Positions 32,392-54,191 of a stretch of DNA of 64,000 nt are shown here, one piece after another. Numbering within the stretch: the first letter of the stretch is position 1; each line of letters opens with the position of its first letter. The stretch comes from Monocercomonoides exilis PA203. Its lineage: Eukaryota; Protista; Preaxostyla. Position numbers and translations under genes: made by a program. A model generated the notes under the pieces. That model searched no databases and was not told the origin of the DNA. It was given only the letters and a program-made list of their open reading frames with translations. The stretch covers positions 434,001-498,000 of the forward strand of contig LSRY02000016.1 of the NCBI GenBank assembly GCA_001643675.2. Reading direction: 5' to 3'.

Positions 32392-33005
32392 GAGCAAGAA
32401 TGGAATCGTGTTTGATTTCATGTGAGCGTTTGTGTGGACATTTAAATATTTAGTTGCAAAAATTTAGAAAGTACATAGTTGCAGAAATTGGTTAACTTGG
32501 TGATAGCTTTTGATTCATCTGCCATTTTTATGAAGCAATTTGCATAATCTTTTTGTTAATCACAAAGTATTTCCAGGAAACAAATAAAATCATCAAAGCA
32601 ATTTCACCATCACTTTCTTGTTCGGTTTTCAAAAAAAAAGTTAATTTGTAAAGGATTTTAATGCAAATGATTGATATGAATCAAGTCAAACGCTTTATTA
32701 TTTTATTAATTTTCAATAATTAAAAACAAAAAGAAATTATTACAATAAAAAAAGAAATTTATTCACAAAAAAAATTCTGAAAATTTTTAGAGGCTAAAAT
32801 GCTTTACAGAAAACTCCAACCAATAACACATTCAAACAAAAAACATTGTTTAAGTTCTGTAAACAATCCAAAACAGAAAAAATAAAAAAAATAAAAAAAT
32901 TACCGCAATAAACAGAAAAATATATACAAATCAAAAAAACGATTCGTCGAAACTGAAAATTAAAATAAAAAAGTTGATTTGAAAACAATCATTTTAAAAA
33001 ACAAA

Positions 33006-36000
33006 TTATGCATATGTTCCATTTGCACAAGAAACCCCAAGTCCTGAACTTCTTTGTTGGGCCAATGAGGTTAAAGAGGAAAGCTCTCTTGAAGCTTCCT
33101 GAGTTTTCTGTCTCGCATCCTGAAGGGCATTCTCCAAAGTGTTCAGCTTTATCTGCATTTCCTTCACAGCAGACATTGCCACAACTGCATTCCTTATGCG
33201 CATTGCAGACTCAGCAGTGATTGCAGCTGCTGTCGTGTCTTTGGCATCTTTGCTATGCTGTTGGCGGATAAGCTCGTTCTTCGTCTGCTCCCGCATCGTC
33301 CGAATGACCGAAAAACTCTGCCCAACAGGAAAGATCTTAGTAGCCATCGGATGCTCTTCTGTTGTTATGTACGCCAACTGAAGCGATTCTGTTCCGCTTA
33401 TCTTGTCCTCTGCATGAATGTCCTTTGCTTTGGCCTCCAAAAGAGAAATGAAGAAGTAAATGTAGTCATTTGGATTGTGCTCGTGATGCACATGCACTTC
33501 AAAGCCTGTGGCCATCTTGTCCAAATCGTGTCGAGAAAGCCCACAAATCAAGCACATTCCTTTCTTCGTCTCTTCTGTTGCTGCACGAGCAGAACGCATA
33601 TCTCCCAGAGCATCTACGATGATAGCAAGAAATACATTCATCAAGATAATTGGCACCATCGCCCAGAACAAGAAAAGAAAGATGGCATCGATGGTGCTTG
33701 TTACAAGCAGCCATCCAACAACCTCAGCACCACCAGCGGGAACTGCCCAAAGCAAAGACAAGAAGCAAGTGCCGTATGACTCACAGATGTTGCCACCATC
33801 CTCATCCAGCATTCTGTTTGGAAGGAATCCAACCACAAAATGGGAAAATATTCCAATCACAATCAAAATCACAATTCCAACCATCGAAAGGATGCTTGCA
33901 TTGTTTGCAATAGCTTTGATCATAAACCTCAGAATTGGCATGTCCTTGACAAAATCGATCACAAGGAAGCAGAAGAAGTACGGTTCAACTGCAAATCCCA
34001 GCACAGTGATGACCAGCTGAAACACCACATAAGCCAAAGACCCGCTCAACGTGCAGCGTATAGCCACATACACCTTTTTGTACCAAGGCTGCTTCCGAAG
34101 CTCCCACTTCCTGTCTTTGCACTGCTGTGCTATTCGATAATTCCTCATCCGCTCAAAGAACACCACAAGATTGTTCATCAAGAAGAACCGAACAGAAGAA
34201 TAGGCACACAAAACAAGCTGCACAATTCCAAGAATCCTCACCAATATGGGAATGAGATAATCCCTAATAGAAATAGGTATTTCATCGATATCAAGCATCA
34301 GCAACAGCAAATTAATCACCAGAATTACAAAAGCCGATAGAATTCTTGCGAGCATCCCCAATGTTTTGTTCAAAATCAACTTTGTGTATTTCATATTGTT
34401 CAGTGTGTGTGCAAATGCCAAATTCTGATAGAGGCCAATGGATTTTGAATGCAGAACATTCAGTCGCTGTGTGTGCTCTTCTTGATCCCAGCTGACGTCA
34501 ATCACCTGTTTGAGCTCTGCTTTGCTTGCTTCTTCAGCCAACGACGGCTTCTCAAAAAATACAAGCTCCACGCTCCCTTTGTCTGACTGCTCTGCATCGT
34601 CTATTGCTCCTCCGCCATTCACAAGTGGAATGCCAGTTGGAGCATCTTTCTTTGCTGCGACTGATGAAGCACTTTCTGCACTTGAAGAAGCCATGGGAGA
34701 AGGAGAAGCAAGACTGGATGGCTTTTTGTAGGATCCACGAGATATATGTGTTGGATTGAAGAACTCTTCATACGATTCCTTAATGTAGTTTTCTCCATCA
34801 TCTGTGTCTGACTGATAAACACGCACAACCTCCACCCTGCACAGCTTCTTTGAAAACAGCGGGCAGGTTGTCTTATACTCAAGCATCTCAGTTTCGATCA
34901 CTTTGCTTTTAGTGGTTGCAGCAGAGATATACGCAGCAACCTTCATCAGCTGCATTCCGGTCTTCAATGACTGCTCTCTTGCCACTTCACTCTGATTGCT
35001 CAAAACAGGATGTCGCAGAGAAAGTGTATGAAGGCAATGCAGTGTGTGGATGGTCTTATGTATCTGCTGGCCGAGCTGTGCATTTTCAAATGCCACTGCT
35101 TGGGTTGTTCGTTGGGGTCCTTCCAGCAAGGCAAGGGTGAGATAAGCTGCGTCGTTAAATAATGAGAACTCTTTTTCTCCAACAGTCTGATACGATGCAA
35201 GTGTCAGCACAGACTGAAGATTCTCATCCAATTGAGACAAAGGCAGAGGAATGGCTGAAAGTGGTGAAAACATCGCAGTGAGTGACCCAATTCCTTCTGA
35301 TTGCAGTAGCTTGTAATGCGAATGCAGCATCATATCCTCCTTCGCCTGTGGTGTCATCTGTTGCGAATTCAGTGCTGCTGCTTCTTCCTGTGCCTGCGCC
35401 TCCTTCTCCAGTTCTTCTTTACTTTTACGGGAAAACAATGAGGTAACTTTGCTAAATGTTGCCTTTCCCAAGTTTCCGGCACTTGATAAAAATCCCTTTA
35501 TTGAGAGAAGGTTTGTTGATGAGCTCTTTGGAATTAGTTCACTTGAAACGTATGTTGTCATTGGTGCAGTGAATGAAAAGCTCAATGAAAACAATCTGTT
35601 AAGAATTGGAAGTACACCACATTCAGTTGCATGGAGCTGATTAGAAATCGAAGGGCCTGTGATGAGAAGAAGCAGTGTGTGTAGCGATATGTGAACGCGT
35701 GCAGTGTCCATCCGTCTGACCCAATTTTGAGTACCGCGTGAAGGAGGAAGGAGAACACCCAAATGCCGAATAAGACTCGAAATCAGGTCAAACTTCTGTT
35801 CGTGAGGAGGATGGACTGGTGCGCGTGCGATTGGAGAGAGAGCCACAAGTGCGAGAGGAGACGCTTTCATCGGCTGGAGATTAAGTGGAGTGGAAAGAGA
35901 CGTGATGATCGGAGCAGACAGCTGTGATGCCTCAGATAAGCCATCAGCATCACCAGATGCTTCAGAGCTGTCTTCATCAACCCACTCGTTGTATGACTTG

Positions 36001-39000
36001 CCCTCTAAGTATCTGTAATAGCCCATCGAAATAAGCCGCAGCTGAGCATCATACAGTCGCGTTGCACATGCTGCTGCTCCTTTCAGAGGGCGGGCACCTG
36101 AGCTGCTTCTGCTGTTGTTGAGATTCGATGCTCTGTCTTCACTGCTTCCAACAGAGGAATCAGAAGCAGCATCGTAAAATCCTCCGAAGATATTCTGGGC
36201 GATCCGGCTGTGGTTGCTTAACAATGAAGAGATGAACTTCATCGACAGATCGATAAATGTTCTTTCGGTAAACTGCTCCTTTTGCTGGTTAGAATCCTCT
36301 GAAATGCTGTTTCTAGCGGAATAGTTGGCTTCTTCTTCATTAAAATCAACAATTGCATCAGAAGAAGTTGAATGTCCTGCTTTCGAACCATTTTCCAGTG
36401 TCAGCATTTCGTTCAATGTCCAACTGTTCTCGTTGCCCAACAACAGTGACTTCTGAACTTTATCTGTGATTTGATCGATTGAATGTGTCAGACGAGGCAG
36501 GAAGAGCCAGTCAGCCCCACGCAGAAAATGAAGGATCAGCGAAAGAGATGCATGAACAACCTCAAAATTGACTTGATTGATAAAATCTGTGTTTACTTTC
36601 CTTTTTCTTTCAAACAAGCTCCCTGATTTCTTTTCCTCATCTTTTGGTTTATTTTCGTCATTTGAAGAATTCTTTGTCGAGTCAATTGAACGTTTACCTT
36701 TCTGCATTGTGCTGCCATTGTTCCCATTCTCTCCTTCTTTTGCGCTCGTTGATCTGATCTTCACATCTGCATCCACATCATCTTCAGAATCTGATTCAAG
36801 ATCATTCGCTTGCTCTTCTCCATCGGCATCTGTCTGCAATTGCAACGATTCATCTTCATCAACAACACCTTCATCTGCAAACAACACTTCGTCTTCTGGC
36901 TTTATACGAACACTCTTTTTGTACTTGGTGCTTTTCATCTTTTTCAGCCTCTCCTTTTCTGCTTTGTCTGCATCTGACTCATCTTCCACCACTTCCTCTG
37001 CAACTCCAATGTCTTTGATTCCCAAAAGCGTCAGCACAGTTGTCAGTGCAGTGCATGCAACAACCATGTTTGGTGATGCAATCTGCAGCATGCATCCCTT
37101 CAGACACCCATCCCGCGTCATCTTCTGCCTCAGCTTCGCTCTGTTCTCAGCACCCTTTGTTGACTCAACAACGTTTGTGAATGCGCGAAGAAGGAACACA
37201 ACCAGCCTTTCGTTGTTTGGCAGTACAAACACTGGCAGCTGCACGATAAGTCGCCGAAGTTTCACTGGATTTCTCGAGGCGACTTTCAGCTCCTCCAAAA
37301 ACTGAGATGACTCAGACTCAATTCGAGACGAAAGCGAAGACTGGATTGTGCTTGAGAACATTGACCACTTCATCAGAAGCTCATTCCGTGCAACGCTGAG
37401 CAGCTCGTTTGTCCGATACGCATTCGGCTTTTGCTTCGGAAGTGCATTGTACAGCTTCATGTGATACTCTGTTCGCAGGTTGTCTTCGGGGAGATGCTCT
37501 GGATCGTCTTCGTGAGGGGAGTAAAGAACTCTCATGTCATCGTCTTGATCATCCACTGCTTCAACAACCTCGTCTGGCTCTTCCATTTGAGGACGCGTCA
37601 CATTCGGCACAAATAGAAGGCCCTGTGGCAGTTCCACTTGAGGCTGTTGTCCATCTTCATACGAAGTCGATGGCTGGCAACCAGAAATGGCAGACACAGC
37701 AGCTGGCGTTCCGCTTCTGCTGTCTTCAGGATTTCCACTGGCTCCTCCAAAAGTCCCGTTTTCGTCCTCCATCTGGCGCTGCATGGAGAGCTGTGGGCCG
37801 ATCTGCTCGATTGTGACGCCGACTGATAGAAGAGTGGAGAAGTCATCGAGAAGTTGTGTTCTTTCTGATTCTTTCATTTCGAGCCATTTGTCGCTGGATG
37901 TGGGCAATGGAGCTGGCAGAGCTTTGTCTTTTCCTTTCTTCGGCTTTGCAAACTCTGCTTTTCGAAGTGTTTTTGAGTTGGATGATGATACAAGAGCTGT
38001 TGAAGAAAATGATGATTGTGCAGAAGATTCAGCTTTCTCATTTGCTGCATCTGCAGTTGGCGGAATGCCAATCGCATCCAAAAAGTTGCGCAGTCTGTTA
38101 TCAACGCCAAAGCACATTGTTCTTCTCAATTTCATTGACTCTCTGCAATCCAGCATCAGATCATTTGCCATGTTCACTCTATTTTGTGTGTGTGGAACAA
38201 GAACAGATTGCAAAAGGAAAGAGGACTGAGAAGAGAAGAAGAGAGACAAGGAAGTGTCAAGAGACGAATAGGAATATGAAGAGAATCGCTTTGTTGTTGC
38301 AGCACTCACAACAGACAGCACCATCGATGAACGCGATCCAACAGAAGGTGAAAGAGAAGAGAAAGCGCTGCTTTGGCTGTCACCTTGGATTGCAAGTGCA
38401 TTCCGATCAACAACAAGCGTTTTCAGTCTTCCAAAAGACGGGGGAAGCGAACGAGGAATGTGGTTTAGATATGGCAGGGCAACAGCATCCCACGCGAGAT
38501 CAGCTTCTTCATCAGAACAGTACAAAAGCGAGTGAACAGCTGAATGTTCGCCTTCTGTCGATGCATGTTCAGATTTGTTACCAGAGACAGAGTTGTATGA
38601 ATGCAGCACATTTGGATTCTGTGCATCGATGATGTCATATCTGGGTAGCGCAGGTGAGTATGGATTGAGTGACATTGTTAATCTTGCAGCATAAGCATTC
38701 AGATCAGCCAAACACAGCAGAGGAATGTGGATAATAGCAGCAAGATGGAGTGCTGCTCGTGTTGTGGTCGATCGCTCAGCCTCTGAAATGATAGAGAAAG
38801 CAGTGTGCCCACGACGCAGCGCAAGAGGAACTGGCGGAAGATCAAACGTGGGGAAAGAAGTTAGAGCAGCTGCTGTGTTGGCTGTGAGTGATGCAACGTT
38901 GTGTGGTGAGTGTGCCAACATTTCGAGAAACTCTTCCTGTCCATTTGCCATCGGAGGCGGCTGAATTGCAAGCATCTTCCCGAATCTTCTTACGCCTTCT

Positions 39001-42000
39001 TCCAGCTGCTCTCCTCGCAAATCGGCAAACATCGCACCAAACGCCTCGCCCCACTCGTCTGCTTTGCCCAGCGCTTCTGTGCTGTCATCGACGGCAGCAT
39101 AATCGCGATACAGATCTTCTTCTCTGTCAGTTACAAATATCTTCATCTTCGTTTCAATCAGCTTGTCAACTTGTGCTTCTGCAGGCTTTTCATTCGAAGC
39201 TTCTTTCTCTTGTTTTGCTTTAGATTTGCTATCTCCTTTATTCTTTTTTATTATCTTAGTTTCTGGTACATCGCAAAGCGAACGATTAGCTTTCAATCTC
39301 CAATCAGAGTAATTTTGGAGTGGATAAGGCAGGTTTCCATCGATGTCGCGAGGAGGGTTGCACCGAAGAAAGATGGACAGAGGTTGAGCTGCACGCACAG
39401 TGAATGCAGATAGTGTGAATGAAGAGTTGACAATTGGGCATGATGGATTTGTCTGGTCGGTGATTTCAGAAGAAGGAATGATCAGATAAGCAGATGATGA
39501 GTGCTTTGCCTGGGGAATGTTGCGCTGAATGTTCTGTGCATTTGGCGATGAAGAAGAAGCAGAAGCAGAAGAAGTGGAAGAAGCAGAAAAGGAGTTCACA
39601 CGCTTCAGACAGCCTGTTATTGTGGACAATGGAATTGACTGCCGCAGATGAGACTCGATCAATCGAAGGGCAGCAGACAAGGCAGGCGTGAAGCACTCGA
39701 ACATCAACAGAGATAGAATGCGTAGACTGTCACGCATCGACTCAATAACAACAGGATTGGCTGCTTTTCTCTGTGACTTGCTGTCTCCAGTTGTGTTACG
39801 AGAAGAAGACGCTGAGGCAGAAGAGAGTTCTGAATTGCGCTGATAATCCGGGTCAAAAAAGGCATCTTCAGAAGGAATGCTCAAAGGTGGGATACGATCC
39901 TGGAAGTACTCTTCGTCTGCTCCAATCAGCAGCCAATCTCTCTCACACTCTTCTTCAGGTGTGTACTGAGGTTTTCCACAGCAGTTCGTATTGTTCCGTT
40001 TTTTTGTGCGTCTTTGGATCTTTTTTGATGAGGAATTAGAACGAGAATATGAATGGGAAGAGTCTGAAGAGGAGCCTGATGAAGATGATGTGTCATCTAT
40101 CAGAGGATAAAAGACAGGGAATCTCTTTGAATTCGCTCGTGTTCTTGCTGATGAAGAAGAAGCAGATGCAGTTGGCAGAGAAACAAGAGGAGAAGTGTGG
40201 TGAATGTGGGTGTTGTCCTGCGGAACCAACGACAACACATCGAAGAATGGCTGAAATAGATGGCGATGCGAATAAATAATGTTGGCTGTTTTGCCTTCTC
40301 CTTCTTGAATGCTGCCACTTTCACTCAAATGCGATGATGAAGCTGACAATGAGCTGTTGTTGTTCACAAGATAATCTGTCTTTCTCTGCCTCGGCGCAGA
40401 AAACTTTTCATCATCTGTGTCATATCCAACAATTCCACTTTGACTATTGTCTGCTCCATTGCTATTATTCCCATTAGCAACTGAAGCACCCCCCAGCTTA
40501 TTGTTTTTCCCGCTTCTCATTTTTGGCCCTTCTGTCACTCTGACAACAGCAGGAGGCACATTCCCCAGCCCCAAAATAGCGCACACAGCAGCAGATGCGA
40601 TGGCCTGTGACCGAATGGCAGTGGAAGTGAGTGAAATAACAGAGAGAATCTCCGAAGGGCGCGAGAGATGGGTGAACGGGAACGATAGATGGACAGCCGT
40701 TACTGCGTGCCAAAGGGACATCACCAGCGGCAGAGGAAGAGAAGAGACGAGCGGAGGAGCCAGAAACGCAGCGAGTGTGGAGATGGGCAGCAGACGGCGG
40801 GCGAACAGCCGGCCTTCCTGGTGCTCTCCGTAGCAGAGGGCAGACATCAGGTCAATACACGCCAGTAGATACGCAAAGGCTGTCTCACCGCTACATGCAT
40901 CGAGGGCGGGGTCTGAGAAGTTTCTGTCGTATGAACAGAACAAGGAAAGGGCAGCTTCACCAGCATGGAGATATTGAGAAGGATCTTCCCTTTCAGAATC
41001 AAGGGTGAATTTGTGCACTAAATGGGTGCTTTGTAACTGACTTTGGCGTGCAAGTGCTGTTGAATTGGATGAAAGAGAAGAAGAAGAAGAGGAAAGAGGA
41101 GATACAACAGCAGAAGTTGGTATTTGCGAGTGCTGATTAGACGCATTCTTTGAATTATTCTCTGAAGATGCACTGGCTGATCCATATTCATTCTGAACAT
41201 TGTTATATCCTTCGTTAAAATGCCCATCAGGATCGCCCAAACCTTCTTCATCTGGCTCGATCCCAGTTCCAGTAAATGACCATATTTCGCCTCTGATGTG
41301 GTCAAAGAGTGTAAGGCAGGTATGTGCGAGTGATGGAACATGACCTTTCCCTTCAGAATTTGCACTCGAAAGATCGCCAGTTGAACCAGTGGGACTTCCA
41401 AACTCAAACCCTTCGTCACCTTCGTCTCCTTCTCCCATCTCTAATCCTCCCCATCCTTCTTCTTTCTTAACTGAAATCGACTGCATGAATGAGTGGCTTT
41501 GTGAAAGTGCACGGAGAATTATCTCTTGGTTTCTCCGAAGAGGCTGCTCACGTGAACCGCATAAGAGAGCAAGGACACGAGGCAATGCAGGACGGTTGGA
41601 AAGAGAAAGATAGGAGTTGTTGAGAGGCAGACATGCGGTCTGGACATCCTTCAGTGGAACAGAGGCAGCGATGTCAGGCACGCGGAGCATCCTAATAAGC
41701 AATGGCTCGGCACCACATTGCACCGCCTTTGGATTGAACAGCAGGTGGAGCATTGCCTTTGCAGCGACGTGTGTCATGGAGTTTGGCTTTGATGCTTCTG
41801 GAAGGGACTCTCCACGAAGGAGGATGAGCAGGGCATGGTTGAGTGAATGATGCACTGTGTAAAGGCTCTTCCGATATGGCAGGCCAGCGATGGTCTTCGC
41901 GAGTGCTGGCACAACAGCCAAAGAGGAAAACAAGGGAAGAAGATACTGTCTGGGCACTGAATCCTTTCTGAGCACAATTCGAGCAGAGAGCATCTCTGCT

Positions 42001-45000
42001 GAACACGATGAGGAGCTGAACGAAAAGCGGAGAGCAGCCGAGATCGAAGTGAGAGCAGAGTGCTGAGAAGCAGTTGCAGTGAACGTGGTGAGCTTTGAGC
42101 GGTTCGACCCGTAGCTCAGGAAAGATGCCCCTTCAACTCCAGAGTTAGATCTGGTGTGTGAATAATGTGCCATGCCCTCAGACCGTCCAGACAGCAGCGA
42201 CATTCCGCTGATGCTCTGAATCTCTGACATCCCTTCTCCTCTTGAGCTCTGTGAGTATTCGTCTTCATTACCAGCACTGGCGCTCTCCTGCCGCTTGCCG
42301 TTCAGCCCTTTCACAGCCACCTCTGCCAGCTCGTCCAGCACGACACATCTCATCTGGTTGATCTCTCTGCTCGAGTGGTGCGACATCAGCGTCTGGAACT
42401 GCCGCAGCAGTGCCTTCACATACTTCTCCAGATCTGACCCACCTGCCTCAGTGACTGGGCGGAGGCCTTTAATGAGCGTGGCGAGGGTTGTGAAGTGCGA
42501 GCGCATCAGACGCTGCTGCAGCTGCAGCTTGTTCGTATTGGCGTCTGCAAACTGTAAAAGAGATGAAGATTGCGAAGAGCCTGTGGATGTGCCTGTACCT
42601 GTGGCTGAAGCTGTTGTATCTGTATATTTTCCTGTCTGTTTTGCGAGTGCTGATTGCGCTCCTTTCGCTGATCTCTTGTCAAATGCTGTCAAAAGCAGTC
42701 TTTCGAGCTTCTCAAACAGCACGTTGTTCTGAGTGATGAGTGACACATCCACAATCTCTGCAGTGCGGGGTGCCACATATCTCATAAACAGCTGCCAAAT
42801 CTTGTTCAGCACTGCCTCGCCGCGCTGCTGCTCCCAAATGTGCTGGATGTCTGTGACGACACTCTGGATGGACTCCATCAGATACACACATCTGTTGAGG
42901 CTGGCAATGGCAGAGGAGTTTTGGTCAGCTGGGAACGAAGACTTGGGCAGGCTGCGGGTGTATTTGTCCTTTGAGCGGCGATCGTGTGAGGAGAGAGCAA
43001 GGATGGAGGTGAAGTAGGCTCTTTTGAGTAACACCAGCTGAGATTGGATGGGAGTACCTATGCTTCTGGCAGAAGGCGATAAAGACTCAGGCGTCTGTCC
43101 ACGGGGAGAGGGATCAAAGGGCTTGCTCTCAGAGATCGATGAGGACGAAGGAGAGGGCAAGGAAAAGGAAACAGAACGAGAAGAAGAAGGAGAAGCAGTA
43201 GAAGAAGGAGATAACGATGAGGTTGATGATGATGATGAAAATGAGGCAGTGGGAGAAAGCGGAGAAAAGCTCAGTCCAGGTGAAGGGCAGCCGCCCATCT
43301 CAATGAACTTGCTGCTCTGTCTTGTGTGTGACACTTTGACATGTGCATCTGCTGTGTTGTTGTTTCTGATGTTTTCTTTGATCTCCTTCTCGTGTCTCTT
43401 CTTGACTGTGTATGTGATCCCTTTCATTCCCAGTGACAGCACAGCAAACACCCTCTCGATGACATCGGACTTGCTGAAGTCGCACTGATGAGTGGTGGTG
43501 AGAGAGAGGATGAGAAGACACGCCTCCAGCAGATTCTCCATAAAGGGCACACACTTCAGCAGACTCAGCACACGGTCAGAGGAAGTGTGGAATGAAGAAG
43601 AAGAAGATGAGGAGGAGGAGGAGGAATTTCCAAAGGGAGAAATGAATGAGGAAGGGGTGCTGGTGGGTGTTGGCACGTGCGATAATGTTGGATGTCTTGA
43701 AGATTTTGGTGTTTGCGAGACAGAAGCAGCATTCGATTGATTCTGTTGCTGTGATGCTTCTCTGCTTCCCTCACCAAAGAGGATGACGGCGAGTGAGTAG
43801 AAAAACGAGTTCAGCCACGAAATGAGACAGAGAGTGACCACGTGGCTTTGCGTGGATGTGGCGAGAGAGGAGAGATTAGACAGAGAAGAAGGGGAGAGAG
43901 AGGCTGTGGGGGTTTTGATGCCCGTTGAGAAAGAAGAAGAGGAAGAGGAAGTTGCAACACTTGCTGAGCTGGAGGAAGAGCGATGATGCACAAGAGCAGA
44001 GCCAGACAGATCAGTAGAGCCATCCACAAGCAGAGGAGGAGACAGAAGTGCATTCATCTCCAGCGGTGAGGCGATGCTAGCCACATCCGAGGGCTTCCTT
44101 CCTCTCTGTGAAGCAGCCAAGCTATTGTTATTGCTACTGTTACTAACACTGTCTGGGTGAATGTTGAGAATCGCTTCTAGTGAGCGCTCCTTCTCTCTCT
44201 GTGGTGAGGGAATCATGAATGTTTGCTTCCCTTCAAACACAACACGCTCAGATGCCAGCACGATGCAGCGACGAAGCAAAGACAAAGAGACAGCACGAGT
44301 GGAAGGAGGGACAACAGGAGAAGAGGCAACCAGATAGAGGAAGTGAGGAGGAAGACGATGGGATGTCTGGATGGTGTTGGCAGGCATATCTCCAGAGCAG
44401 AGGACATCGTACAGGCGGAGGGAGAAGTAGAGATAATGAGGGAGAAGACCAGTAGGAGACACAAATGCACCAGAGATTGCAGCATCTGTGTGTGCAGCGA
44501 CAGAAGCGATGTGCGAGTGGAAGGAAGAGTCCTCGTCGCAGAAGGAGAGGATGTTCATGCTGCCACAGGGTGTCCTCAGCACAAGATGTGCCACAATTGG
44601 CTGGGTAGAGTCGTATCTGTTGCATTCTGCACGGGCAAAGACACGGCAGCACTCTGCACACAAACACGGCGCCTTCCGGCGAGAGGCAGAAATCGCATTG
44701 GCTGCGTCTTTCCTGCCGCTCCGCTTGGATTTGGTGTCAGAGCCAGTTGAAGTGAAGATGTCAGTGTATCGAATGCCTTTGATGGAGGAGAGGATGGAGT
44801 GGGGGATGTGCTGGATGGGAGGGGCAGTGATAGTCAGGTCAGAGGGAAGCTGAGGAGCAGGCAGGAGACAAGAGGAGATGCCAGTGAGGGTGTGTGAATG
44901 AGGAGAGGAAGAGGTGGAGGAAGAGACAGGGGAGTGAGGTGTAAAGGCAGATGATGATGATGATGATGACATTGATGGTGTGTGATGTGTTGTATTGCGA

Positions 45001-48000
45001 GATGCTGTGTGTGGAATGATTTGAACTGTTCCTGATGCAGTTGAAGATGAAGAAGAATCAATTGATGATGAAGGAGGTGATGTGATGGTTGAATAAGGCA
45101 CAAATGCTGATGAAGCAGAAAAAGGGGAAGCAGCATTGTTAGGTGATTGAGATAACTGATTAGATGATGATGAAGATGAAGAAGATGATTGAGATGGAGT
45201 GAGGATGTCTGACTGTTGTGCATCAGCTGTTGAAAGAGAGCGCTCTTTCAGATAGAAAGCAGGGTGACTCACTGCACTCACTTCGATGCAGACATCACAG
45301 AGAAGAAGAGGAGAATCGTCTGTTTTCAAAGGGAGTGAAGAGAAAGAAGGGAAGAGAGAGAGAAAGGGGATGGACTGAAGAGAAGCGAGGGTGGATTCAG
45401 CGTTGAGGGTGAAGAGGGCATTGGCGACTTCTGTTTGGTTGCGAGGGAAGAAGCGGTCGGGGACAGGGCGGAAGAGAGCGTTGATGACATCAGGTGTGAG
45501 AGAACCAGAGGAAAGAGAAGAAGAAGAAGCAGAAGAAGAAGGGGCAGTTGGTGAAGTGGAAGAAGAAGAAGAAGAGGATGAGGAGGAGGAGGAGGATGAA
45601 CTGGTTGATGTGGTTGAAGGCTGTGAAGAAGAAGACGAAGAAGACGAAGATGAGGAAGAGGAGGATGATGATGAATTGTTTGAAGACGCCAGCATATTCC
45701 CAGATGGTGCAAGAATATTTCCATCACCTGCATTGTCATCTTCTCCATTTGTGTTAGCAGCAGCATCACTTCCATCAGTCAGAGCACAGGGGCAATATGA
45801 ATGACGATATGCTCTGTTGAATATCGCCTTTGCCAGTGCATCTACTGGCTCTCCAGAGACAGTGAATGAAGGGCAAGGGATGTAAGAGCAAGGGAAAGGG
45901 AATAATGCAATGGACTCTGGGTGATAATAACAGAGAGAGGAGAGGAAGCGGATGGCGAGGATGGCAGAGGAGGAGATGCCGTCGCTGGAGTCCTTCGGAA
46001 GGGACAGCCTCATGCCATTGGCAACAACAGCGTGGATGACAGCAGAAGGGATAGTTTCAGTGAAGGAAGGGTTGGTCGAGTAGATGGCAAAGAGAAGGCC
46101 GATTGTTGCTTTCTCGTCGAAGACAAGGAAAGAGGTGAGGAAGCCGACGTGCTGGGTGAGGTGGAAGGAGACGAAAGGGTTGGAGAATGAGAGAAAGGTC
46201 AGCACAGACAGACAGCTGTGCACAGCACTCAGAATCTCCTGCTTCAGAAGCCTGCGAGCGATGTTCAGTGCTTCGATGGCATCGCTCTCAACACTCTCTG
46301 CTGATGATGAGGATGAGGCTGATGAAGTAGACGAGAATGAATAGTTGCTCATGGGACTTCTTGTTCGTGTTGGCTTTGCTCTCAGCGTGGCCATAGCAGC
46401 AGAGCCAATTGAAGAAGAATAAGAATAAGAAGATGAAGAAGATGATGAAATCCTTCGTGACTGCTCAAACATCGACAAGAAGCGTAGGCAGAACGAGAGA
46501 AGAGCGAGAGGGATGCGGAGGAAGCCAGCGTATGCGAGTGCGTTCTGGAGGCGAATAGAAGGAGCAGTCGACGATGCCCTCTGCACACGAGCTCCATTCC
46601 CAGTCAAATTGAGAGAGGTCAAGAAAGTGAGGAGAGAGAAGAAGAAGAGAACATGGGTGGGCTCCAGATCGGCTGAGAAGGAGGTCAAAAAGGTGTTCAT
46701 TTGAGTGCTCATTGTGTAGAAGAGAGTGGCCAGTGTGTTCAGATGTGCTTCTTGTTGCATCATCTTCGCTGCCAGCTGAGCTGGTGTTAATGCCGGTGGA
46801 ACATCAATGTCTTGTTCTTGTGAGAAGGAAGAGAGAGGAGAAGAGGATGATGCTGATGAAGGAGAGGAAGGAGATGTTGGAGAAGTGGGAGGTGGAGGAG
46901 GAGGAGGAGGGAGCATTGAAGATAAAGATGCATCAACAGCTTCGTCTGGCTGTGCCATTGAAGCCATTTGAGCACTCTGCATCTCCATCTGCCCACTCAC
47001 ACACTGTCTGTTCATCTCAGCTCGCATCTCCTCTACTTCCTCACACACAACTGCACTCAGATTAGCCAGTGCATTCATCAGCTGCATCAGCACACGGGCT
47101 GCTTTGAGGGTGGAGAGGAGGAATTGGGCAGTGCGTGCTGTCTCTCTCGAGATGTGCCACATGTTTGAAGGAGATGACTGGGCAATCAGACGCTGGGCAG
47201 CCGACATCGGGATGGTGCTGAGGGAGAGTAAAGAGGAAGAAGAAGAGGAGGAGGAGGAAGAAGCAGGCAATATAGCTGTATGCATTGAAAATGACATCTT
47301 CTCAGACCGTAACAACTGCTGACTGGCAGAAGCAGAATGAATGAAAGAAGGCGATCCAGCCATGAAAGCATTGCTCTTGCCTATTGTCTTTGGGATATGG
47401 AGTGTGAAGTGGAGGGTGTATGCCTGTGAGAAAGGGTCCAGCGGCAGTTCTGTCTCCGCCGTGCGGTCTTCCACAGCCCCTGTGCTGCTGCCAGAGAGCA
47501 CAGAGGCCATGTCTGATGGCAGCGAGCGATGAGAGGAGGAGCCGTAGGAGAGGCTGGTGACGGACTTGCTCCGGGACTTCGCTGAGCGCACACTCATGTT
47601 GGTGCTTGTGGGCATTCTGCGGTGTCTTCTCATGTCTGAAGATAACGCCTCTCCTCCTCCTACCCCTGCTCCTCCAATTCCTGTTCCTCCTCCACTTCCC
47701 AGTTCTGAATGCTGCCTCTTCATCGAAGCCTCCTGCAGGAATTTCAGCCTGCTCTCCTCTTCCTGTGCTTTCTCTTCCAGCTTCTCCTCAAAACGCAGGC
47801 GATCTGCGCCAACCTCAAATGAGGTGCCCGGCGTGACATCTGCTCCAGTGGCGACGTGGATGAGGAGGCCACAGTGCTTCGGGGGAATGGGCGTGGACAG
47901 CTTGTCCGCGCTGTTTGGAGGGAGGAACGTGAACAGACACAGATTCAATGGCGGATTCTCAGAGAGGACGAAGCGAGGGGAGATGAGCATTGGCGACTCA

Positions 48001-49640
48001 GAAGAAGAAGAAGAAGAAGATGGTGATGATGATGATAATGAAGAAGAAGATGATGAAGTGATGGCTGTTGAATTCAAAGGCAATTTCTCATAAGACGAAG
48101 AATTGGCATTATGAGCATCAGGAAATGAAGACAACGGAGGTGATGAAGAGGCAGAAGGAGCTGAGGATGGCATTGAGCTCAGAATTCCAATGGAAGGCTG
48201 TGGAACAACAGAAGGTACATGGCTGTCCACAGAATACGCTTCTGTCTGTGTCTCCTTCTCTTTTGCCCGAAGAGACTCCATCCCGTAAATATACTCGTCC
48301 TCCGCCTGAAGTGGATCTTCCTCTGTCTGCTCTACTGTGCTGCTGTCATTTCTGCGTCCTGTCTCAACAGCACTGATTGATCTGTCTCTCCCTTTCTCTG
48401 TGATTCCTCCAGCGCTTTGCCCAGCCAGTGCTTGGTAGTCGGAAGGATGCATCGAAAGGAAAAAGCCTGTCAGCGAATGGCGCAGGCAGAACACATCGCC
48501 CCACTTCAGCGACTCTCCGAGCTGATGCATCGAGCTCAGCATGTGCCGCGGGGAGCTCAGCTGGAGCGGATAAACACGATCAACCTCCCAGAACTCGTTC
48601 ACTCCCACATCGTCTTCCAGCGGAAAGGCCTGCTCTTCAGCGCTTGTTTGGAGAAGACGCATCAACGTTGGCGTCTTCTTTGCATACGGAAGCGATCTAA
48701 TGATTGGAACGGATGAAGTGAAGAAAGCTGAAGTTGATGCTGACAAATAAAATGACTCGAGCTCTTTTTCGATAATTGTATCTTGTTGAGCCTCACTTTC
48801 CAAATTTTCACAAACAGGTGCTGCGTATTGTTTCTTTTTTGAAAATGTGTGTGTAATCGAAGAATGTGCTGAGAGAAAGCCCTGAAGCTCCAAATGAGAT
48901 AATCTTATTGGGACTCCACTTAATATTCGTTCGCATGGTCTTTGAAATTGTTCGTCTCCAATTCCCAATAAAGTTTGTGAGGCAAGAGACCCACCGTACC
49001 TATTAATTGTCCACGCAAAACTTGACGTCAGTCCAATTAAAGGAGATGCTTTACCTGAGTTTTCAATACAAGTATCCACAGAACAAGCAACCTGAAGATC
49101 AAGTTGAACTGATACAAGCGAAATCGAATCGCCTAGGATTATAGGATCACCAACAGACCTGTATAAACTGTTTGGCAAAACTCTAAAATATCCTGCAGAA
49201 GAGCCAACTGATAGTTTTGTCCTGCAACTTTGAACAGTTCGAACAAGCGAAAGAAATCTGCTTCCAACAAGAGAACGTAGCATAATAATACTTCCATATA
49301 GTATTGGCTCTCCAAAATGTTTTTGCTCCAACAATTCATTATTTTTTTGCTCTTTAAATAAATTAGCCATTTGAACGGGATCAGAAGATGCAGATATTTT
49401 GCTTGCAGTTTTTTCTTGTTCTGAAAAAATAAATTGAGGACAAGCTTCCCATGCAAACCTTCCTAACAATGCAAATGTTGAAGGTGTTAATTGAGAAAAA
49501 TCTTTATTCGTTAAAATAACAGAAGAAGAATCACTTTCCGACGAAAGAAAAGATGATGCATTAGAAGAAGATATGCTTAACACGAAAAGTTCTCCAAAAC
49601 GCGCAGCTGTAGTTTTGGCGCTTGGTATTTCGTCATTCAT
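33006..49640 (-). CDS. Inositol 1,4,5-trisphosphate-receptor/RyR-superfamily Ca2+-release channel-like protein, 5,544 aa, single ORF
   Basis: N-terminal beta-trefoil/MIR-like motifs (GEPILYGSIIMLRSL, LKWGDVFCLRHSLTGFFL). RIH-associated-like ITGPSISNQ and LALLEG. Six TM helices, S6 MNVFLAIIVDALGDMR, and the C2H2 motif CLICG..FEVHVHHEHN..YIYF. Confidence 0.88.
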   Translation of the reverse strand: MNDEIPSAKTTAARFGELFVLSISSSNASSFLSSESDSSSVILTNKDFSQLTPSTFALLGRFAWEACPQFIFSEQEKTASKISASSDPVQMANLFKEQKNNELLEQKHFGEPILYGSIIMLRSLVGSRFLSLVRTVQSCRTKLSVGSSAGYFRVLPNSLYRSVGDPIILGDSISLVSVQLDLQVACSVDTCIENSGKASPLIGLTSSFAWTINRYGGSLASQTLLGIGDEQFQRPCERILSGVPIRLSHLELQGFLSAHSSITHTFSKKKQYAAPVCENLESEAQQDTIIEKELESFYLSASTSAFFTSSVPIIRSLPYAKKTPTLMRLLQTSAEEQAFPLEDDVGVNEFWEVDRVYPLQLSSPRHMLSSMHQLGESLKWGDVFCLRHSLTGFFLSMHPSDYQALAGQSAGGITEKGRDRSISAVETGRRNDSSTVEQTEEDPLQAEDEYIYGMESLRAKEKETQTEAYSVDSHVPSVVPQPSIGILSSMPSSAPSASSSPPLSSFPDAHNANSSSYEKLPLNSTAITSSSSSSLSSSSPSSSSSSSESPMLISPRFVLSENPPLNLCLFTFLPPNSADKLSTPIPPKHCGLLIHVATGADVTPGTSFEVGADRLRFEEKLEEKAQEEESRLKFLQEASMKRQHSELGSGGGTGIGGAGVGGGEALSSDMRRHRRMPTSTNMSVRSAKSRSKSVTSLSYGSSSHRSLPSDMASVLSGSSTGAVEDRTAETELPLDPFSQAYTLHFTLHIPKTIGKSNAFMAGSPSFIHSASASQQLLRSEKMSFSMHTAILPASSSSSSSSSSLLSLSTIPMSAAQRLIAQSSPSNMWHISRETARTAQFLLSTLKAARVLMQLMNALANLSAVVCEEVEEMRAEMNRQCVSGQMEMQSAQMASMAQPDEAVDASLSSMLPPPPPPPPTSPTSPSSPSSASSSSPLSSFSQEQDIDVPPALTPAQLAAKMMQQEAHLNTLATLFYTMSTQMNTFLTSFSADLEPTHVLFFFSLLTFLTSLNLTGNGARVQRASSTAPSIRLQNALAYAGFLRIPLALLSFCLRFLSMFEQSRRISSSSSSSYSYSSSIGSAAMATLRAKPTRTRSPMSNYSFSSTSSASSSSSAESVESDAIEALNIARRLLKQEILSAVHSCLSVLTFLSFSNPFVSFHLTQHVGFLTSFLVFDEKATIGLLFAIYSTNPSFTETIPSAVIHAVVANGMRLSLPKDSSDGISSSAILAIRFLSSLCYYHPESIALFPFPCSYIPCPSFTVSGEPVDALAKAIFNRAYRHSYCPCALTDGSDAAANTNGEDDNAGDGNILAPSGNMLASSNNSSSSSSSSSSSSSSSSSQPSTTSTSSSSSSSSSSSSSSSTSPTAPSSSASSSSLSSGSLTPDVINALFRPVPDRFFPRNQTEVANALFTLNAESTLASLQSIPFLSLFPSFSSLPLKTDDSPLLLCDVCIEVSAVSHPAFYLKERSLSTADAQQSDILTPSQSSSSSSSSSNQLSQSPNNAASPFSASSAFVPYSTITSPPSSSIDSSSSSTASGTVQIIPHTASRNTTHHTPSMSSSSSSSAFTPHSPVSSSTSSSPHSHTLTGISSCLLPAPQLPSDLTITAPPIQHIPHSILSSIKGIRYTDIFTSTGSDTKSKRSGRKDAANAISASRRKAPCLCAECCRVFARAECNRYDSTQPIVAHLVLRTPCGSMNILSFCDEDSSFHSHIASVAAHTDAAISGAFVSPTGLLPHYLYFSLRLYDVLCSGDMPANTIQTSHRLPPHFLYLVASSPVVPPSTRAVSLSLLRRCIVLASERVVFEGKQTFMIPSPQREKERSLEAILNIHPDSVSNSSNNNSLAASQRGRKPSDVASIASPLEMNALLSPPLLVDGSTDLSGSALVHHRSSSSSASVATSSSSSSFSTGIKTPTASLSPSSLSNLSSLATSTQSHVVTLCLISWLNSFFYSLAVILFGEGSREASQQQNQSNAASVSQTPKSSRHPTLSHVPTPTSTPSSFISPFGNSSSSSSSSSSSFHTSSDRVLSLLKCVPFMENLLEACLLILSLTTTHQCDFSKSDVIERVFAVLSLGMKGITYTVKKRHEKEIKENIRNNNTADAHVKVSHTRQSSKFIEMGGCPSPGLSFSPLSPTASFSSSSSTSSLSPSSTASPSSSRSVSFSLPSPSSSSISESKPFDPSPRGQTPESLSPSARSIGTPIQSQLVLLKRAYFTSILALSSHDRRSKDKYTRSLPKSSFPADQNSSAIASLNRCVYLMESIQSVVTDIQHIWEQQRGEAVLNKIWQLFMRYVAPRTAEIVDVSLITQNNVLFEKLERLLLTAFDKRSAKGAQSALAKQTGKYTDTTASATGTGTSTGSSQSSSLLQFADANTNKLQLQQRLMRSHFTTLATLIKGLRPVTEAGGSDLEKYVKALLRQFQTLMSHHSSREINQMRCVVLDELAEVAVKGLNGKRQESASAGNEDEYSQSSRGEGMSEIQSISGMSLLSGRSEGMAHYSHTRSNSGVEGASFLSYGSNRSKLTTFTATASQHSALTSISAALRFSFSSSSCSAEMLSARIVLRKDSVPRQYLLPLFSSLAVVPALAKTIAGLPYRKSLYTVHHSLNHALLILLRGESLPEASKPNSMTHVAAKAMLHLLFNPKAVQCGAEPLLIRMLRVPDIAASVPLKDVQTACLPLNNSYLSLSNRPALPRVLALLCGSREQPLRRNQEIILRALSQSHSFMQSISVKKEEGWGGLEMGEGDEGDEGFEFGSPTGSTGDLSSANSEGKGHVPSLAHTCLTLFDHIRGEIWSFTGTGIEPDEEGLGDPDGHFNEGYNNVQNEYGSASASSENNSKNASNQHSQIPTSAVVSPLSSSSSSLSSNSTALARQSQLQSTHLVHKFTLDSEREDPSQYLHAGEAALSLFCSYDRNFSDPALDACSGETAFAYLLACIDLMSALCYGEHQEGRLFARRLLPISTLAAFLAPPLVSSLPLPLVMSLWHAVTAVHLSFPFTHLSRPSEILSVISLTSTAIRSQAIASAAVCAILGLGNVPPAVVRVTEGPKMRSGKNNKLGGASVANGNNSNGADNSQSGIVGYDTDDEKFSAPRQRKTDYLVNNNSSLSASSSHLSESGSIQEGEGKTANIIYSHRHLFQPFFDVLSLVPQDNTHIHHTSPLVSLPTASASSSSARTRANSKRFPVFYPLIDDTSSSSGSSSDSSHSYSRSNSSSKKIQRRTKKRNNTNCCGKPQYTPEEECERDWLLIGADEEYFQDRIPPLSIPSEDAFFDPDYQRNSELSSASASSSRNTTGDSKSQRKAANPVVIESMRDSLRILSLLMFECFTPALSAALRLIESHLRQSIPLSTITGCLKRVNSFSASSTSSASASSSSPNAQNIQRNIPQAKHSSSAYLIIPSSEITDQTNPSCPIVNSSFTLSAFTVRAAQPLSIFLRCNPPRDIDGNLPYPLQNYSDWRLKANRSLCDVPETKIIKKNKGDSKSKAKQEKEASNEKPAEAQVDKLIETKMKIFVTDREEDLYRDYAAVDDSTEALGKADEWGEAFGAMFADLRGEQLEEGVRRFGKMLAIQPPPMANGQEEFLEMLAHSPHNVASLTANTAAALTSFPTFDLPPVPLALRRGHTAFSIISEAERSTTTRAALHLAAIIHIPLLCLADLNAYAARLTMSLNPYSPALPRYDIIDAQNPNVLHSYNSVSGNKSEHASTEGEHSAVHSLLYCSDEEADLAWDAVALPYLNHIPRSLPPSFGRLKTLVVDRNALAIQGDSQSSAFSSLSPSVGSRSSMVLSVVSAATTKRFSSYSYSSLDTSLSLFFSSQSSFLLQSVLVPHTQNRVNMANDLMLDCRESMKLRRTMCFGVDNRLRNFLDAIGIPPTADAANEKAESSAQSSFSSTALVSSSNSKTLRKAEFAKPKKGKDKALPAPLPTSSDKWLEMKESERTQLLDDFSTLLSVGVTIEQIGPQLSMQRQMEDENGTFGGASGNPEDSRSGTPAAVSAISGCQPSTSYEDGQQPQVELPQGLLFVPNVTRPQMEEPDEVVEAVDDQDDDMRVLYSPHEDDPEHLPEDNLRTEYHMKLYNALPKQKPNAYRTNELLSVARNELLMKWSMFSSTIQSSLSSRIESESSQFLEELKVASRNPVKLRRLIVQLPVFVLPNNERLVVFLLRAFTNVVESTKGAENRAKLRQKMTRDGCLKGCMLQIASPNMVVACTALTTVLTLLGIKDIGVAEEVVEDESDADKAEKERLKKMKSTKYKKSVRIKPEDEVLFADEGVVDEDESLQLQTDADGEEQANDLESDSEDDVDADVKIRSTSAKEGENGNNGSTMQKGKRSIDSTKNSSNDENKPKDEEKKSGSLFERKRKVNTDFINQVNFEVVHASLSLILHFLRGADWLFLPRLTHSIDQITDKVQKSLLLGNENSWTLNEMLTLENGSKAGHSTSSDAIVDFNEEEANYSARNSISEDSNQQKEQFTERTFIDLSMKFISSLLSNHSRIAQNIFGGFYDAASDSSVGSSEDRASNLNNSRSSSGARPLKGAAACATRLYDAQLRLISMGYYRYLEGKSYNEWVDEDSSEASGDADGLSEASQLSAPIITSLSTPLNLQPMKASPLALVALSPIARAPVHPPHEQKFDLISSLIRHLGVLLPPSRGTQNWVRRMDTARVHISLHTLLLLITGPSISNQLHATECGVLPILNRLFSLSFSFTAPMTTYVSSELIPKSSSTNLLSIKGFLSSAGNLGKATFSKVTSLFSRKSKEELEKEAQAQEEAAALNSQQMTPQAKEDMMLHSHYKLLQSEGIGSLTAMFSPLSAIPLPLSQLDENLQSVLTLASYQTVGEKEFSLFNDAAYLTLALLEGPQRTTQAVAFENAQLGQQIHKTIHTLHCLHTLSLRHPVLSNQSEVAREQSLKTGMQLMKVAAYISAATTKSKVIETEMLEYKTTCPLFSKKLCRVEVVRVYQSDTDDGENYIKESYEEFFNPTHISRGSYKKPSSLASPSPMASSSAESASSVAAKKDAPTGIPLVNGGGAIDDAEQSDKGSVELVFFEKPSLAEEASKAELKQVIDVSWDQEEHTQRLNVLHSKSIGLYQNLAFAHTLNNMKYTKLILNKTLGMLARILSAFVILVINLLLLMLDIDEIPISIRDYLIPILVRILGIVQLVLCAYSSVRFFLMNNLVVFFERMRNYRIAQQCKDRKWELRKQPWYKKVYVAIRCTLSGSLAYVVFQLVITVLGFAVEPYFFCFLVIDFVKDMPILRFMIKAIANNASILSMVGIVILIVIGIFSHFVVGFLPNRMLDEDGGNICESYGTCFLSLLWAVPAGGAEVVGWLLVTSTIDAIFLFLFWAMVPIILMNVFLAIIVDALGDMRSARAATEETKKGMCLICGLSRHDLDKMATGFEVHVHHEHNPNDYIYFFISLLEAKAKDIHAEDKISGTESLQLAYITTEEHPMATKIFPVGQSFSVIRTMREQTKNELIRQQHSKDAKDTTAAAITAESAMRIRNAVVAMSAVKEMQIKLNTLENALQDARQKTQEASRELSSLTSLAQQRSSGLGVSCANGTYA

Positions 49641-49908
49641 TAAAACAATTATTCTGAATACTAAGTTTGGGACAAGAAATATGTGATAAAAAAAGGGACA
49701 AAATCATTCAAGGAAATTATAGATCAGTCGTCTGATATTTTATTGCTGTTTGTGAACTTTATAAACTTTATTGCGCAATAAATTATTGCTTCTAATTATT
49801 AATATTATATTTATTTTGTTTTTTTAACTGTTTTATAACTTTTATTTTATTTTTCAAATGTTTTTGCATTTCGACCTTCTTCGTCAAATACCTTCATAAT
49901 TTTAAAAG

Positions 49909-53780: not shown

Positions 53781-54191
53781 TTTTAATGTTTCAATTGTTT
53801 ACCTTTGTGAAGTTGCACAAATTTAAAAGAATGAACGAAAATATTTTAATTTTTAGCGAGGAGTTAATATATATATATAAGTTTGTTTGCTTGTTTGTGA
53901 ATGAGCATTCTTTTATTCAAACATAACTTTTATTATGAAGTAGCTCATCAGCATTCAAAATTAAAATAACTATAGCTGGCAAGTTGATATTATATCGGAC
54001 ACGACAAAATGACTATTTTTGTTGTTGTCTTGATTCGTTATGGCATTTCATTTACATTTTTGTTTAAAAAAATTACACTTAAAATATAGTGCATATTTAT
54101 TGCATTTATGAAAAAAAACAACAATTTGTTCCAAACTTTTTCTGCAATAACCTCAAAATCAGTCTTCCTTAACAACGGTAAATAATGCAAA

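What the first reader, a model, noticed from the sequence alone, without database searches (positions are those of the whole stretch)
33560..33800. IP3R-like channel with a rewritten selectivity filter and gate
Seen: the pore loop reads CFLSLLWAVPAGGAEVVGW and S6 reads MNVFLAIIVDAL, next to an intact C2H2 zinc motif. Established: IP3Rs and RyRs carry (L/V)RxGGG(V/I)GD in the filter, and IP3R S6 reads NLIFGVIIDTF. Here the Arg, the third Gly and the filter Asp are replaced, a Glu appears inside the filter, and the S6 Gly is Ala. Inference: altered ion selectivity or conductance, or a non-conducting/regulatory subunit. The 16.6-kb ORF is uninterrupted, which argues against simple decay.
Basis: partly seen in the sequence, partly recalled or inferred. 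Interest (0 to 1): 0.75.

Follow-up and report, generated by a model that had tools for sequence, protein, structure and literature searches.

The report
Oxymonad release channel with rebuilt filter
An intact 5,544-residue IP3/ryanodine-receptor-family gene, likely from an oxymonad gut flagellate, has a rebuilt pore filter that its closest relatives share and appears to lack the usual IP3 and calcium activation residues, so it likely still passes cations but with less calcium preference and an unknown trigger; odd filters are common in protist channels of this family.

Summary
Observation confirmed: the pore loop (33711-33749), S6 gate (33606-33641) and C2H2 finger lie in one uninterrupted 5,544-codon ORF. 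Contigs of three RNA-library runs and one DNA run match the pore with no differences. The protein belongs to the IP3R/RyR family. The filter is not a one-off: five distinct relatives (Blattamonas x2, Streblomastix, two unnamed) share a Trp/Pro-framed loop that is more conserved than the domain average (48% vs 34%). Only 40 of 147 other hits carry exact GGG[IV]GD; 11 have the S6 Gly-to-Ala. The Glu is not conserved: clade members carry an acid either here or at the canonical Asp position, three residues on, so it likely replaces the lost Asp. New: all 8 IP3 contacts and both Glu of the Ca2+-activation site appear replaced. Best reading (0.55): a conducting cation-release channel with lower Ca2+ preference and non-canonical gating; non-conducting scaffold 0.25. 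Divergent filters are in print for Paramecium and oomycetes, and this scan noted similar cases in two other genomes. New variant of a known kind; function untested.

The parts
33006..49640 (-). Uninterrupted ORF, 5,544 aa, IP3R/RyR-family channel subunit; enlarged by Ser-rich low-complexity stretches (16.5% Ser)
   Evidence: RNA-run contigs over about 32.6-49.65 kb
49059..49595 (-). N-terminal beta-trefoil (Pfam Ins145_P3_rec, residues 16-194)
   Evidence: E 3.7e-7, 29.9 bits (cut-off 23)
48243..48521 (-). MIR-like second beta-trefoil region (below Pfam cut-off)
   Evidence: E 0.0025; profile match
48630..48656 (-). Segment aligned to ITPR1 R265/R269 IP3 contacts; Gln and Glu here
   Evidence: hhalign, (alignment inferred across insertions)
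46533..46559 (-). Segment aligned to ITPR1 R504/K508/R511; Ile, Asn, Ala here
46170..46190 (-). Segment aligned to ITPR1 Y567/R568/K569; Asn, Pro, Phe here
36195..36224 (-). First half of the ARM3 Ca2+-activation site; hIP3R3 E1882 position is Ser4475 (weak but colinear alignment), adjacent His kept
35652..35678 (-). Second half of the Ca2+-activation site; E1946 position is Leu4658, Q1949 position is Thr4661
   Evidence: hhalign probability 95.6
33825..33899 (-). Predicted S5 helix
   Evidence: AF2 model, (helix 238-262 of the 457-aa model)
33744..33785 (-). Conserved luminal Cys pair and pore helix; the helix is predicted to end three residues earlier than in the canonical control
33711..33749 (-). 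Rebuilt filter loop W5298-W5310: Pro5301, Gly5303-Gly5304, Glu5306, Gly5309 at the canonical Asp position
33558..33695 (-). Predicted S6 helix. Gate segment 33606-33641 has Leu, Ala, Val at hIP3R3 F2513, G2514, I2517; N2510, D2518, D2522 and R2524 positions are kept; Asp at the RyR1 R4913 position
33477..33554 (-). Intact C2H2 zinc finger; neighbouring ATP-pocket positions partly changed (K2560, M2565, W2566 are His, Pro, Asn)

Best explanation
The gene encodes an intact IP3R/RyR-family subunit of a likely oxymonad-specific subfamily that probably assembles into an endomembrane cation-release channel with a rebuilt filter, likely lower conductance and Ca2+ preference, and a trigger that is probably neither IP3 nor the canonical Ca2+ site. 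Shown: family membership by sequence; a shared Trp/Pro-framed loop in the clade; loss of the pore-helix Arg and the filter Asp together, which in RyR1 form an inter-subunit salt bridge; two filter glycines kept; the S6 Asn, Asp, Asp, Arg and the zinc finger kept. Predicted: an IP3R-like transmembrane fold, with the Pro ending the pore helix early and a short helix carrying Glu5306. Inferred: Glu5306 supplies the luminal acid ring in place of the lost Asp; the smaller gate residues (Leu, Val) may offset the stiffer Ala hinge; gating comes from an unknown input acting on the enlarged cytosolic domain. Tetramer, location and ion flux are untested.
For: Fold: pLDDT 93.8; best structural match hIP3R3, Z 25.8, rmsd 4.2 A over 373 residues. 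Clade: 100 SH-aLRT for six rows; 100/100 for four rows with the loop columns removed. Loop identity within the clade is 48% vs 34% over the domain, reached by 7% of 209 sliding windows (the window was chosen on its conserved Trp ends, so this is biased upward). Acid pattern: query and P0004 have Glu at position 14 and no acid at 17; P0003, P0005 and P0007 have Asp/Glu at 17 and none at 14; P0006 has neither. Positions 14 and 17 are i, i+3 on the predicted helix. An acid stands at the RyR1 R4913 position in 6 of 6 clade members. Pro-type filters go with loss of the S6-start acid (20 of 23 vs 21 of 125; rows are not phylogenetically independent). Precedent: a D. firmibasis homologue lacks Arg, GGG and Asp, and D. 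discoideum iplA, the only IP3R-like gene then known there, is needed for normal cAMP-evoked Ca2+ responses (PMC555532, abstract and Background). RyR1 D4899Q still conducts, 164 vs 801 pS, PCa/PK 1 vs 7 (PMC2668181, passages). RNA-run contigs cover the ORF.
Against: In mammalian channels single filter-Gly changes abolish release (IP3R2 G2498S, IP3R1 G2506R/A; PMC7939385, passages), D2550A does not release Ca2+ (PMC6700175, passages), and Ala at the S6 hinge is linked to SCA29 (PMC8930994, passages). This protein carries several such changes at once. Neither filter Gly is invariant in the clade (P0004 and P0006 keep only the first; P0003, P0005 and P0007 only the second), the fourth Gly is Pro in the five relatives, and P0006 has no filter acid. 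The Dictyostelium evidence is genetic, that paper says channel function of IplA is not shown, and orthology of P0170 to IplA is inferred. All RNA runs come from one study and no silent control stretch was laid. No coordinates were available, so pore radius and the direction of the Glu side chain were not measured.
Confidence: 0.55

Rival explanations
1. A non-conducting scaffold or regulatory subunit: the pore has been re-packed shut, and the protein is kept for membrane contacts or protein binding, or to tune a heterotetramer with a paralog that keeps the Ca2+ site.
For: The filter, hinge, IP3 site and Ca2+ site all depart from canonical. Pore-dead IP3R1/2 still support ER contacts (PMC6700175, passages). 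Blattamonas has a separate paralog (P0146) that keeps both Ca2+-site Glu.
Against: The loop, S6 and zinc finger are among the best-conserved parts of the clade's transmembrane domain. An acid is kept at one of two same-face positions in 5 of 6 members. None of the three Blattamonas paralogs I saw has a canonical filter, though a further gene (BLNAU_448 in a supplement of PMC10703272) was not seen, and the window's genome could not be searched for paralogs.
Confidence: 0.25
2. A conducting channel that passes mainly monovalent cations (K+ counter-ion or osmotic role) and little Ca2+.
For: RyR1 G4898R conducts K+ but not Ca2+, and D4899Q drops PCa/PK to 1 (PMC2668181, passages); both equivalent positions are changed here (Val, Gly). 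The Ca2+-activation site appears lost.
Against: Glu5306 and the S6-start Asp could restore negative charge at the luminal mouth. The cytosolic S6 acids are kept.
Confidence: 0.14
3. An ordinary IP3-gated, Ca2+-regulated release channel whose sequence has merely drifted, or whose ligand residues I misaligned.
For: IP3 contacts are also poorly conserved in the 44 full-length reference hits (for example Arg at the R568 column in 10 of 44). The N-terminal alignment crosses long insertions, and the E1882 match is weak (hhalign alternative hit, probability 0.8%).
Against: Three IP3 segments and two Ca2+ segments are colinear and give 0 of 8 and 0 of 3 side chains. The E1946 segment aligns well (probability 95.6).
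Confidence: 0.04
4. A decaying gene or an assembly artefact.
For: Long branches; many low-complexity stretches.
Against: 16.6-kb open frame; RNA and DNA contigs identical over the pore; the same loop type in two named genera and in unnamed metagenome proteins.
Confidence: 0.02

Closest known systems
Animal IP3 receptors (ITPR1-3; PDB 7t3u, 8tl9)
   Same: N-terminal beta-trefoils, ARM segments, six-helix channel fold, luminal Cys pair, S6 Asn/Asp/Asp/Arg, C2H2 finger.
   Different: Twice the length; no GGGVGD; gate Leu/Ala/Val instead of Phe/Gly/Ile; IP3 contacts and Ca2+-site Glu appear replaced; short luminal loops (Cys to S6 Asp 51 residues vs a mode of 57).
Ryanodine receptors (RyR1-3)
   Same: Similar size, same pore fold (Foldseek E about 1e-13; Z 23.1).
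   Different: No SPRY, RyR-repeat or RR_TM4-6 Pfam match at E up to 1; the R4892, D4899, R4913 and D4917 positions are all changed; the gate Gln is Leu.
Oxymonad IP3R-like proteins (Blattamonas KAK2964496, KAK2951992; Streblomastix KAA6357954)
   Same: Same clade, same Trp/Pro-framed loop, mostly Ala at the S6 hinge, degenerate ligand sites in the two Blattamonas proteins.
   Different: They keep Asp/Glu at the canonical position and a Pro before it; the query has Glu three residues earlier and Val-Gly there. They are unstudied, auto-annotated proteins.
Pro-filter protist IP3R-like proteins (Paratrimastix, Pygsuia, Gefionella, Andalucia, a third Blattamonas paralog; dictyostelid IplA-like proteins)
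   Same: Pro at or next to the Arg position, loss of GGG and Asp, often an acid after the kept Gly, loss of the S6-start Arg/Asp pair.
   Different: Most keep the S6 Gly and many keep the Ca2+-site Glu. Common origin with the query's clade is neither shown nor rejected (p-AU 0.24).
Paramecium CRC channels
   Same: Protist IP3R/RyR-like channels with reduced or absent filter motif; permeation left open by the authors (PMC3213138, section 5 read).
   Different: Ciliate family; their sequences were not compared here.

Membership tests
IP3R/RyR calcium-release channel superfamily | N-terminal beta-trefoil (Ins145_P3_rec / MIR) domains | tested here: met
   (PF08709 above cut-off; MIR below cut-off); hhalign probability 99.4 to an ITPR1 N-terminal profile
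IP3R/RyR calcium-release channel superfamily | C-terminal six-helix channel fold with pore helix, followed by a C2H2 zinc finger | tested here: met
   C-C-H-H present
IP3R/RyR calcium-release channel superfamily | RIH and RIH-associated ARM segments | tested here: inconclusive
   No Pfam RIH match for the query; weak colinear profile matches and hhalign probability 95.6 for the second half of RIH-associated
IP3R/RyR calcium-release channel superfamily | Tetrameric assembly | tested here: inconclusive
   Complex job gave no answer
IP3R/RyR calcium-release channel superfamily | Cation / Ca2+ conduction from an internal store | not testable with these tools
   Needs electrophysiology or imaging
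Canonical (animal-type) IP3 receptor | Filter (L/V)RxGGG(V/I)GD | tested here: not met
Canonical (animal-type) IP3 receptor | IP3-binding residues R265, R269, R504, K508, R511, Y567, R568, K569 | tested here: not met
   0 of 8 in the hhalign alignment; the alignment crosses insertions, and binding itself was not tested
Canonical (animal-type) IP3 receptor | Ca2+-activation site E1882, E1946, Q1949 (hIP3R3) | tested here: not met
   Ser, Leu, Thr; the first position rests on a weak alignment
Canonical (animal-type) IP3 receptor | S6 gate Phe-Gly-x-x-Ile | tested here: not met
   Leu-Ala-x-x-Val
Ryanodine receptor | SPRY and RyR-repeat domains; GGGIGDE filter; S6 Gln | tested here: not met
   Filter and S6 Gln absent in the sequence; no such Pfam domains at E up to 1, though divergent copies could be missed

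The most novel reading that the evidence does not exclude
Oxymonads, the eukaryotes without mitochondria, carry a giant IP3R-like subfamily that has given up IP3 gating, Ca2+ gating and Ca2+ preference and works as a differently triggered, mainly monovalent or non-conducting channel; its filter acid has moved by one helical turn within the clade.
Probability: 0.3. Interest if true: 0.7.

Novelty: new variant of a known kind. Interest (0 to 1): 0.42.

Why it matters
Each filter change here would be expected to cripple a mammalian IP3R or RyR, yet a protist clade keeps the whole set. If it conducts, it shows that the GGGxGD motif and its Arg-Asp bridge can be replaced, and it gives natural variants (acid at position 14 versus 17) for testing what sets Ca2+ preference in this family. 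Giardia and Trichomonas were reported to lack IP3R/RyR homologues (PMC3194816), so the oxymonad genes also bear on calcium release in metamonads and in cells with no ER-mitochondria coupling. The surprise is limited: divergent filters in protist release channels are already in print, and nothing functional is shown here.

Tried and rejected
No whole genome is held for this window, so paralogs and phospholipase C in the same organism could not be checked. The tetramer prediction of the pore domain gave no answer (score 0.06, mark 0.32) and is not evidence either way. The word-based homolog searches added no clade members, and the metagenome contig scan confirmed none of 284 pattern matches. dN/dS was not possible because no close DNA relatives were found. 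The ESM Atlas returned only IP3R/RyR-type and other ion-transport clusters. Trees did not settle whether the clade shares an origin with the Paratrimastix/Pygsuia/Andalucia Pro group (p-AU 0.24) or sits beside amoebozoan proteins (92/91, long branches); union with Paratrimastix plus the third Blattamonas paralog had p-AU 0.087. P0006, P0007 and other long or short rows were left out of the 35-row tree. The deletion-only filter register (Glu on I/V) was rejected. The choice between the ungapped register and the one-deletion-plus-one-insertion register is not settled: the second scored higher in 13 of 13 sequences but without gap costs. An RyR assignment from size alone was rejected. Fisher tests ignore relatedness and are not used as probabilities. 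No earlier finding matched by sequence or place. The supplement of PMC6759080 could not be read and may mention these genes.

Full report
1. Observation. The window holds a minus-strand ORF from 49640 to 33006, 5,544 aa from its first ATG. Eight public runs from two studies hold the stretch. I laid four of them on 32000-49750. No other letters were listed. RNA-run contigs of 10.9 kb (X6), 10.8 kb (X7) and 4.0 kb (X4) and a DNA contig (X8) cross the pore with 0 differences and 0 gaps. The RNA contigs on the gene begin near 49.6 kb and end near 32.6-32.8 kb, close to the ORF bounds. The 15 of 48 joints shown link repeat-rich places and none shown reads GT..AG. The three RNA runs are one study, all are contigs, and no silent control was laid, so expression is likely but not proven.

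2. Family. Pfam finds Ins145_P3_rec above its cut-off, with weak MIR and Ion_trans matches. All 51 PDB sequences matched by the C-terminal part are IP3Rs or RyRs (best E 6e-17). A profile built from 44 full-length hits matches the query in seven pieces from residue 32 to 5539, mostly in order, separated by long insertions. AlphaFold2 of the last 457 modelled residues gave pLDDT 93.8. Its best structural match is human IP3R3 (Z 25.8, rmsd 4.2 A, 373 residues), with RyR1 at 23.1 and other channels at 12.3 or below. RyR-specific domains were not detected; the RyR-like size likely comes from low-complexity insertions (16.5% Ser).

3. Relatives. phmmer against 1.84 billion representatives gave 2,222 hits at E up to 0.001; I saw the best 150, one being the window's own protein. 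The closest are two Blattamonas nauphoetae proteins, a Streblomastix strix fragment, two unnamed JGI fragments and a Logan fragment whose loop equals the Streblomastix one. The organism is therefore likely an oxymonad; this is inferred, not shown. These form a clade (100 SH-aLRT, six rows; 100/100, four rows, loop columns removed). All share a 13-residue loop framed by two Trp; 5 of 6 have Pro at the query's Pro, and the five relatives have [LF]-Pro before the last two residues. Mean identity in the loop is 48% against 34% over the domain (biased upward by how the window was chosen).

4. How unusual is it? I counted 147 of the 149 other hits (P0045 and P0007 lack an anchor). The set is chosen by likeness to the query, so it over-represents odd filters. 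Exact GGG[IV]GD: 40 of 147. Arg at the canonical position: 83. Pro at or just before that position: 22. S6 hinge: Gly 132, Ala 11, Ser 3, Thr 1. C2H2 intact: 146. An acid just after the glycines occurs in 20 of 148 rows including the query. Named carriers of Pro-type filters include Paratrimastix, Pygsuia, Gefionella, Andalucia, a third Blattamonas paralog, dictyostelids, Protostelium and Soliformovum. A Dictyostelium firmibasis homologue lacks Arg, GGG and Asp. In print, Paramecium CRCs range from the full motif to none (PMC3213138, section 5 read) and some oomycete ITPRs have GGGLG(G/S) (PMC7399828, passages). This scan noted similar cases in two other genomes (unchecked AI notes).

5. Register. 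Counting from the pore-helix Cys as 0, a canonical control (P0035) folded the same way has helix -3 to +10, loop 11-14, a short helix 15-17 and a bridge at 19. The query has helix -3 to +7, loop 8-12, helix 13-18 and a bridge at 19. Net length is equal, so Val5307 matches I/V, Val5308 the fourth Gly and Gly5309 the Asp. Profile scoring without gap costs favours one deletion before the Pro and one insertion after the glycines in 13 of 13 sequences. That makes Pro the Arg, the two Gly the first two Gly, Ala the third, and Glu an insertion. The ungapped register remains possible. In both, one or two filter glycines are kept.

6. Mechanism. In RyR1, R4892 and D4899 form an inter-subunit salt bridge (PMC13062998, passages); the query has lost both. 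Pro-type filters also lose the S6-start Arg/Asp pair: 20 of 23 lack the acid that 104 of 125 others keep, which suggests a re-scaffolded rather than a damaged filter. In the clade the acid sits at 14 (query, P0004) or at 17 (P0003, P0005, P0007), never both, and P0006 has neither. These positions are i, i+3 on the predicted helix, so I infer that the Glu replaces the Asp. The clade also has Asp/Glu in 6 of 6 at the R4913 position. In S6, the hIP3R3 gate F2513/I2517 and pivot G2514 (PMC8930994 and PMC10613215, passages) are Leu, Val and Ala, while the N2510, D2518, D2522 and R2524 positions are kept. Mutagenesis points to lower conductance and Ca2+ preference when the Asp is lost (RyR1 D4899Q, 164 vs 801 pS, PCa/PK 1 vs 7; PMC2668181, passages). 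It also shows that single Gly changes can kill a mammalian pore (PMC7939385, passages). That RyR1 G4934A still conducts is my recollection; the table I saw says only that both S6 glycines matter (PMC7204063, passages).

7. Against an ITPR1 profile, the eight IP3 contacts align to Gln, Glu, Ile, Asn, Ala, Asn, Pro and Phe. Many protist references lack them too, so this is not special to the clade. The Ca2+-activation Glu pair, kept in 37 and 39 of 44 references, aligns to Ser and Leu in the query, Ser and Ser in P0003, and Ser and Asp in P0005 (the first position is a weak match after an insertion of about 140 residues). The third Blattamonas paralog keeps both Glu. In hIP3R3, mutating this site slows release and removes oscillations but does not abolish it (PMC10613215, section 9 read). 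The ATP pocket is partly changed. Gating is therefore probably non-canonical.

8. Against, and limits. No functional data exist for any member that I found. The tetramer job gave no answer. The Dictyostelium precedent is genetic and rests on inferred orthology (PMC555532, abstract and Background). Paralogs in the same genome could not be searched.

9. Novelty. Ten literature searches ran; those aimed at protist or oxymonad channels listed no paper on oxymonad release-channel pores. The main texts of two oxymonad genome papers do not mention ryanodine or IP3 receptors by the terms searched (PMC6759080; PMC10703272). A supplement of the second lists auto-annotated IP3R-like genes of Monocercomonoides, Blattamonas, Streblomastix and Paratrimastix, and the supplement of the first was unreadable. 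Giardia and Trichomonas were reported to have none (PMC3194816, passages). PMC2995152 (passages) gave the canonical motif numbering, and PMC6700175 (passages) the pore-dead scaffold precedent. Most subscription journals are not in the library. Verdict: real, intact and clade-wide; a new variant of a known kind; interest 0.42.

Noticed in passing
window 50544-52300 (-): A myo-inositol-1-phosphate synthase gene (Pfam E 1.5e-86) lies about 0.9 kb upstream of the channel's start on the same strand; its 5' part appears to sit in further exons. Probably chance adjacency; synteny not checked.
   Followed up: partly
window 1955-12070 (-): A 3,300-aa Pumilio-family protein (8 PUF repeats) with very long Ser/Gln/His low-complexity tracts, including Ser-His dipeptide repeats.
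   Followed up: no
window 22026-25994 (+): Single-ORF P4-type phospholipid-translocating ATPase.
   Followed up: no
window 52901-53926 (+): Ribosomal protein L3 fragment (Pfam positions 93-368) with odd-looking substitutions and an unrelated tail; may be a decaying copy.
   Followed up: no
window 58995-59717 (+): DDE_1 transposase fragment (E 3e-10).
   Followed up: no
window 12167-13072 (+): A 301-aa hydrophobic, multi-helix ORF with no Pfam match at E up to 0.05; could be a receptor-like membrane protein.
   Followed up: no
P0002: The database holds the window's protein as a 3,259-aa form, 100% identical over the searched part, so a public gene model may cover only the C-terminal part of the 5,544-aa ORF.
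   Followed up: no
P0005 (Blattamonas KAK2951992): UniRef names this clade member 'HECT-type E3 ubiquitin transferase', but Pfam shows RIH_assoc and no HECT; likely a mis-annotation.
   Followed up: partly
P0012, P0030, P0011, P0013 and hits such as P0019, P0021, P0150: Several protist homologues have short x-Gly-Asp filters that recall group-2 TRP filters (resemblance recalled from memory; the PKD2-like LGD is given in PMC7399828).
   Followed up: no
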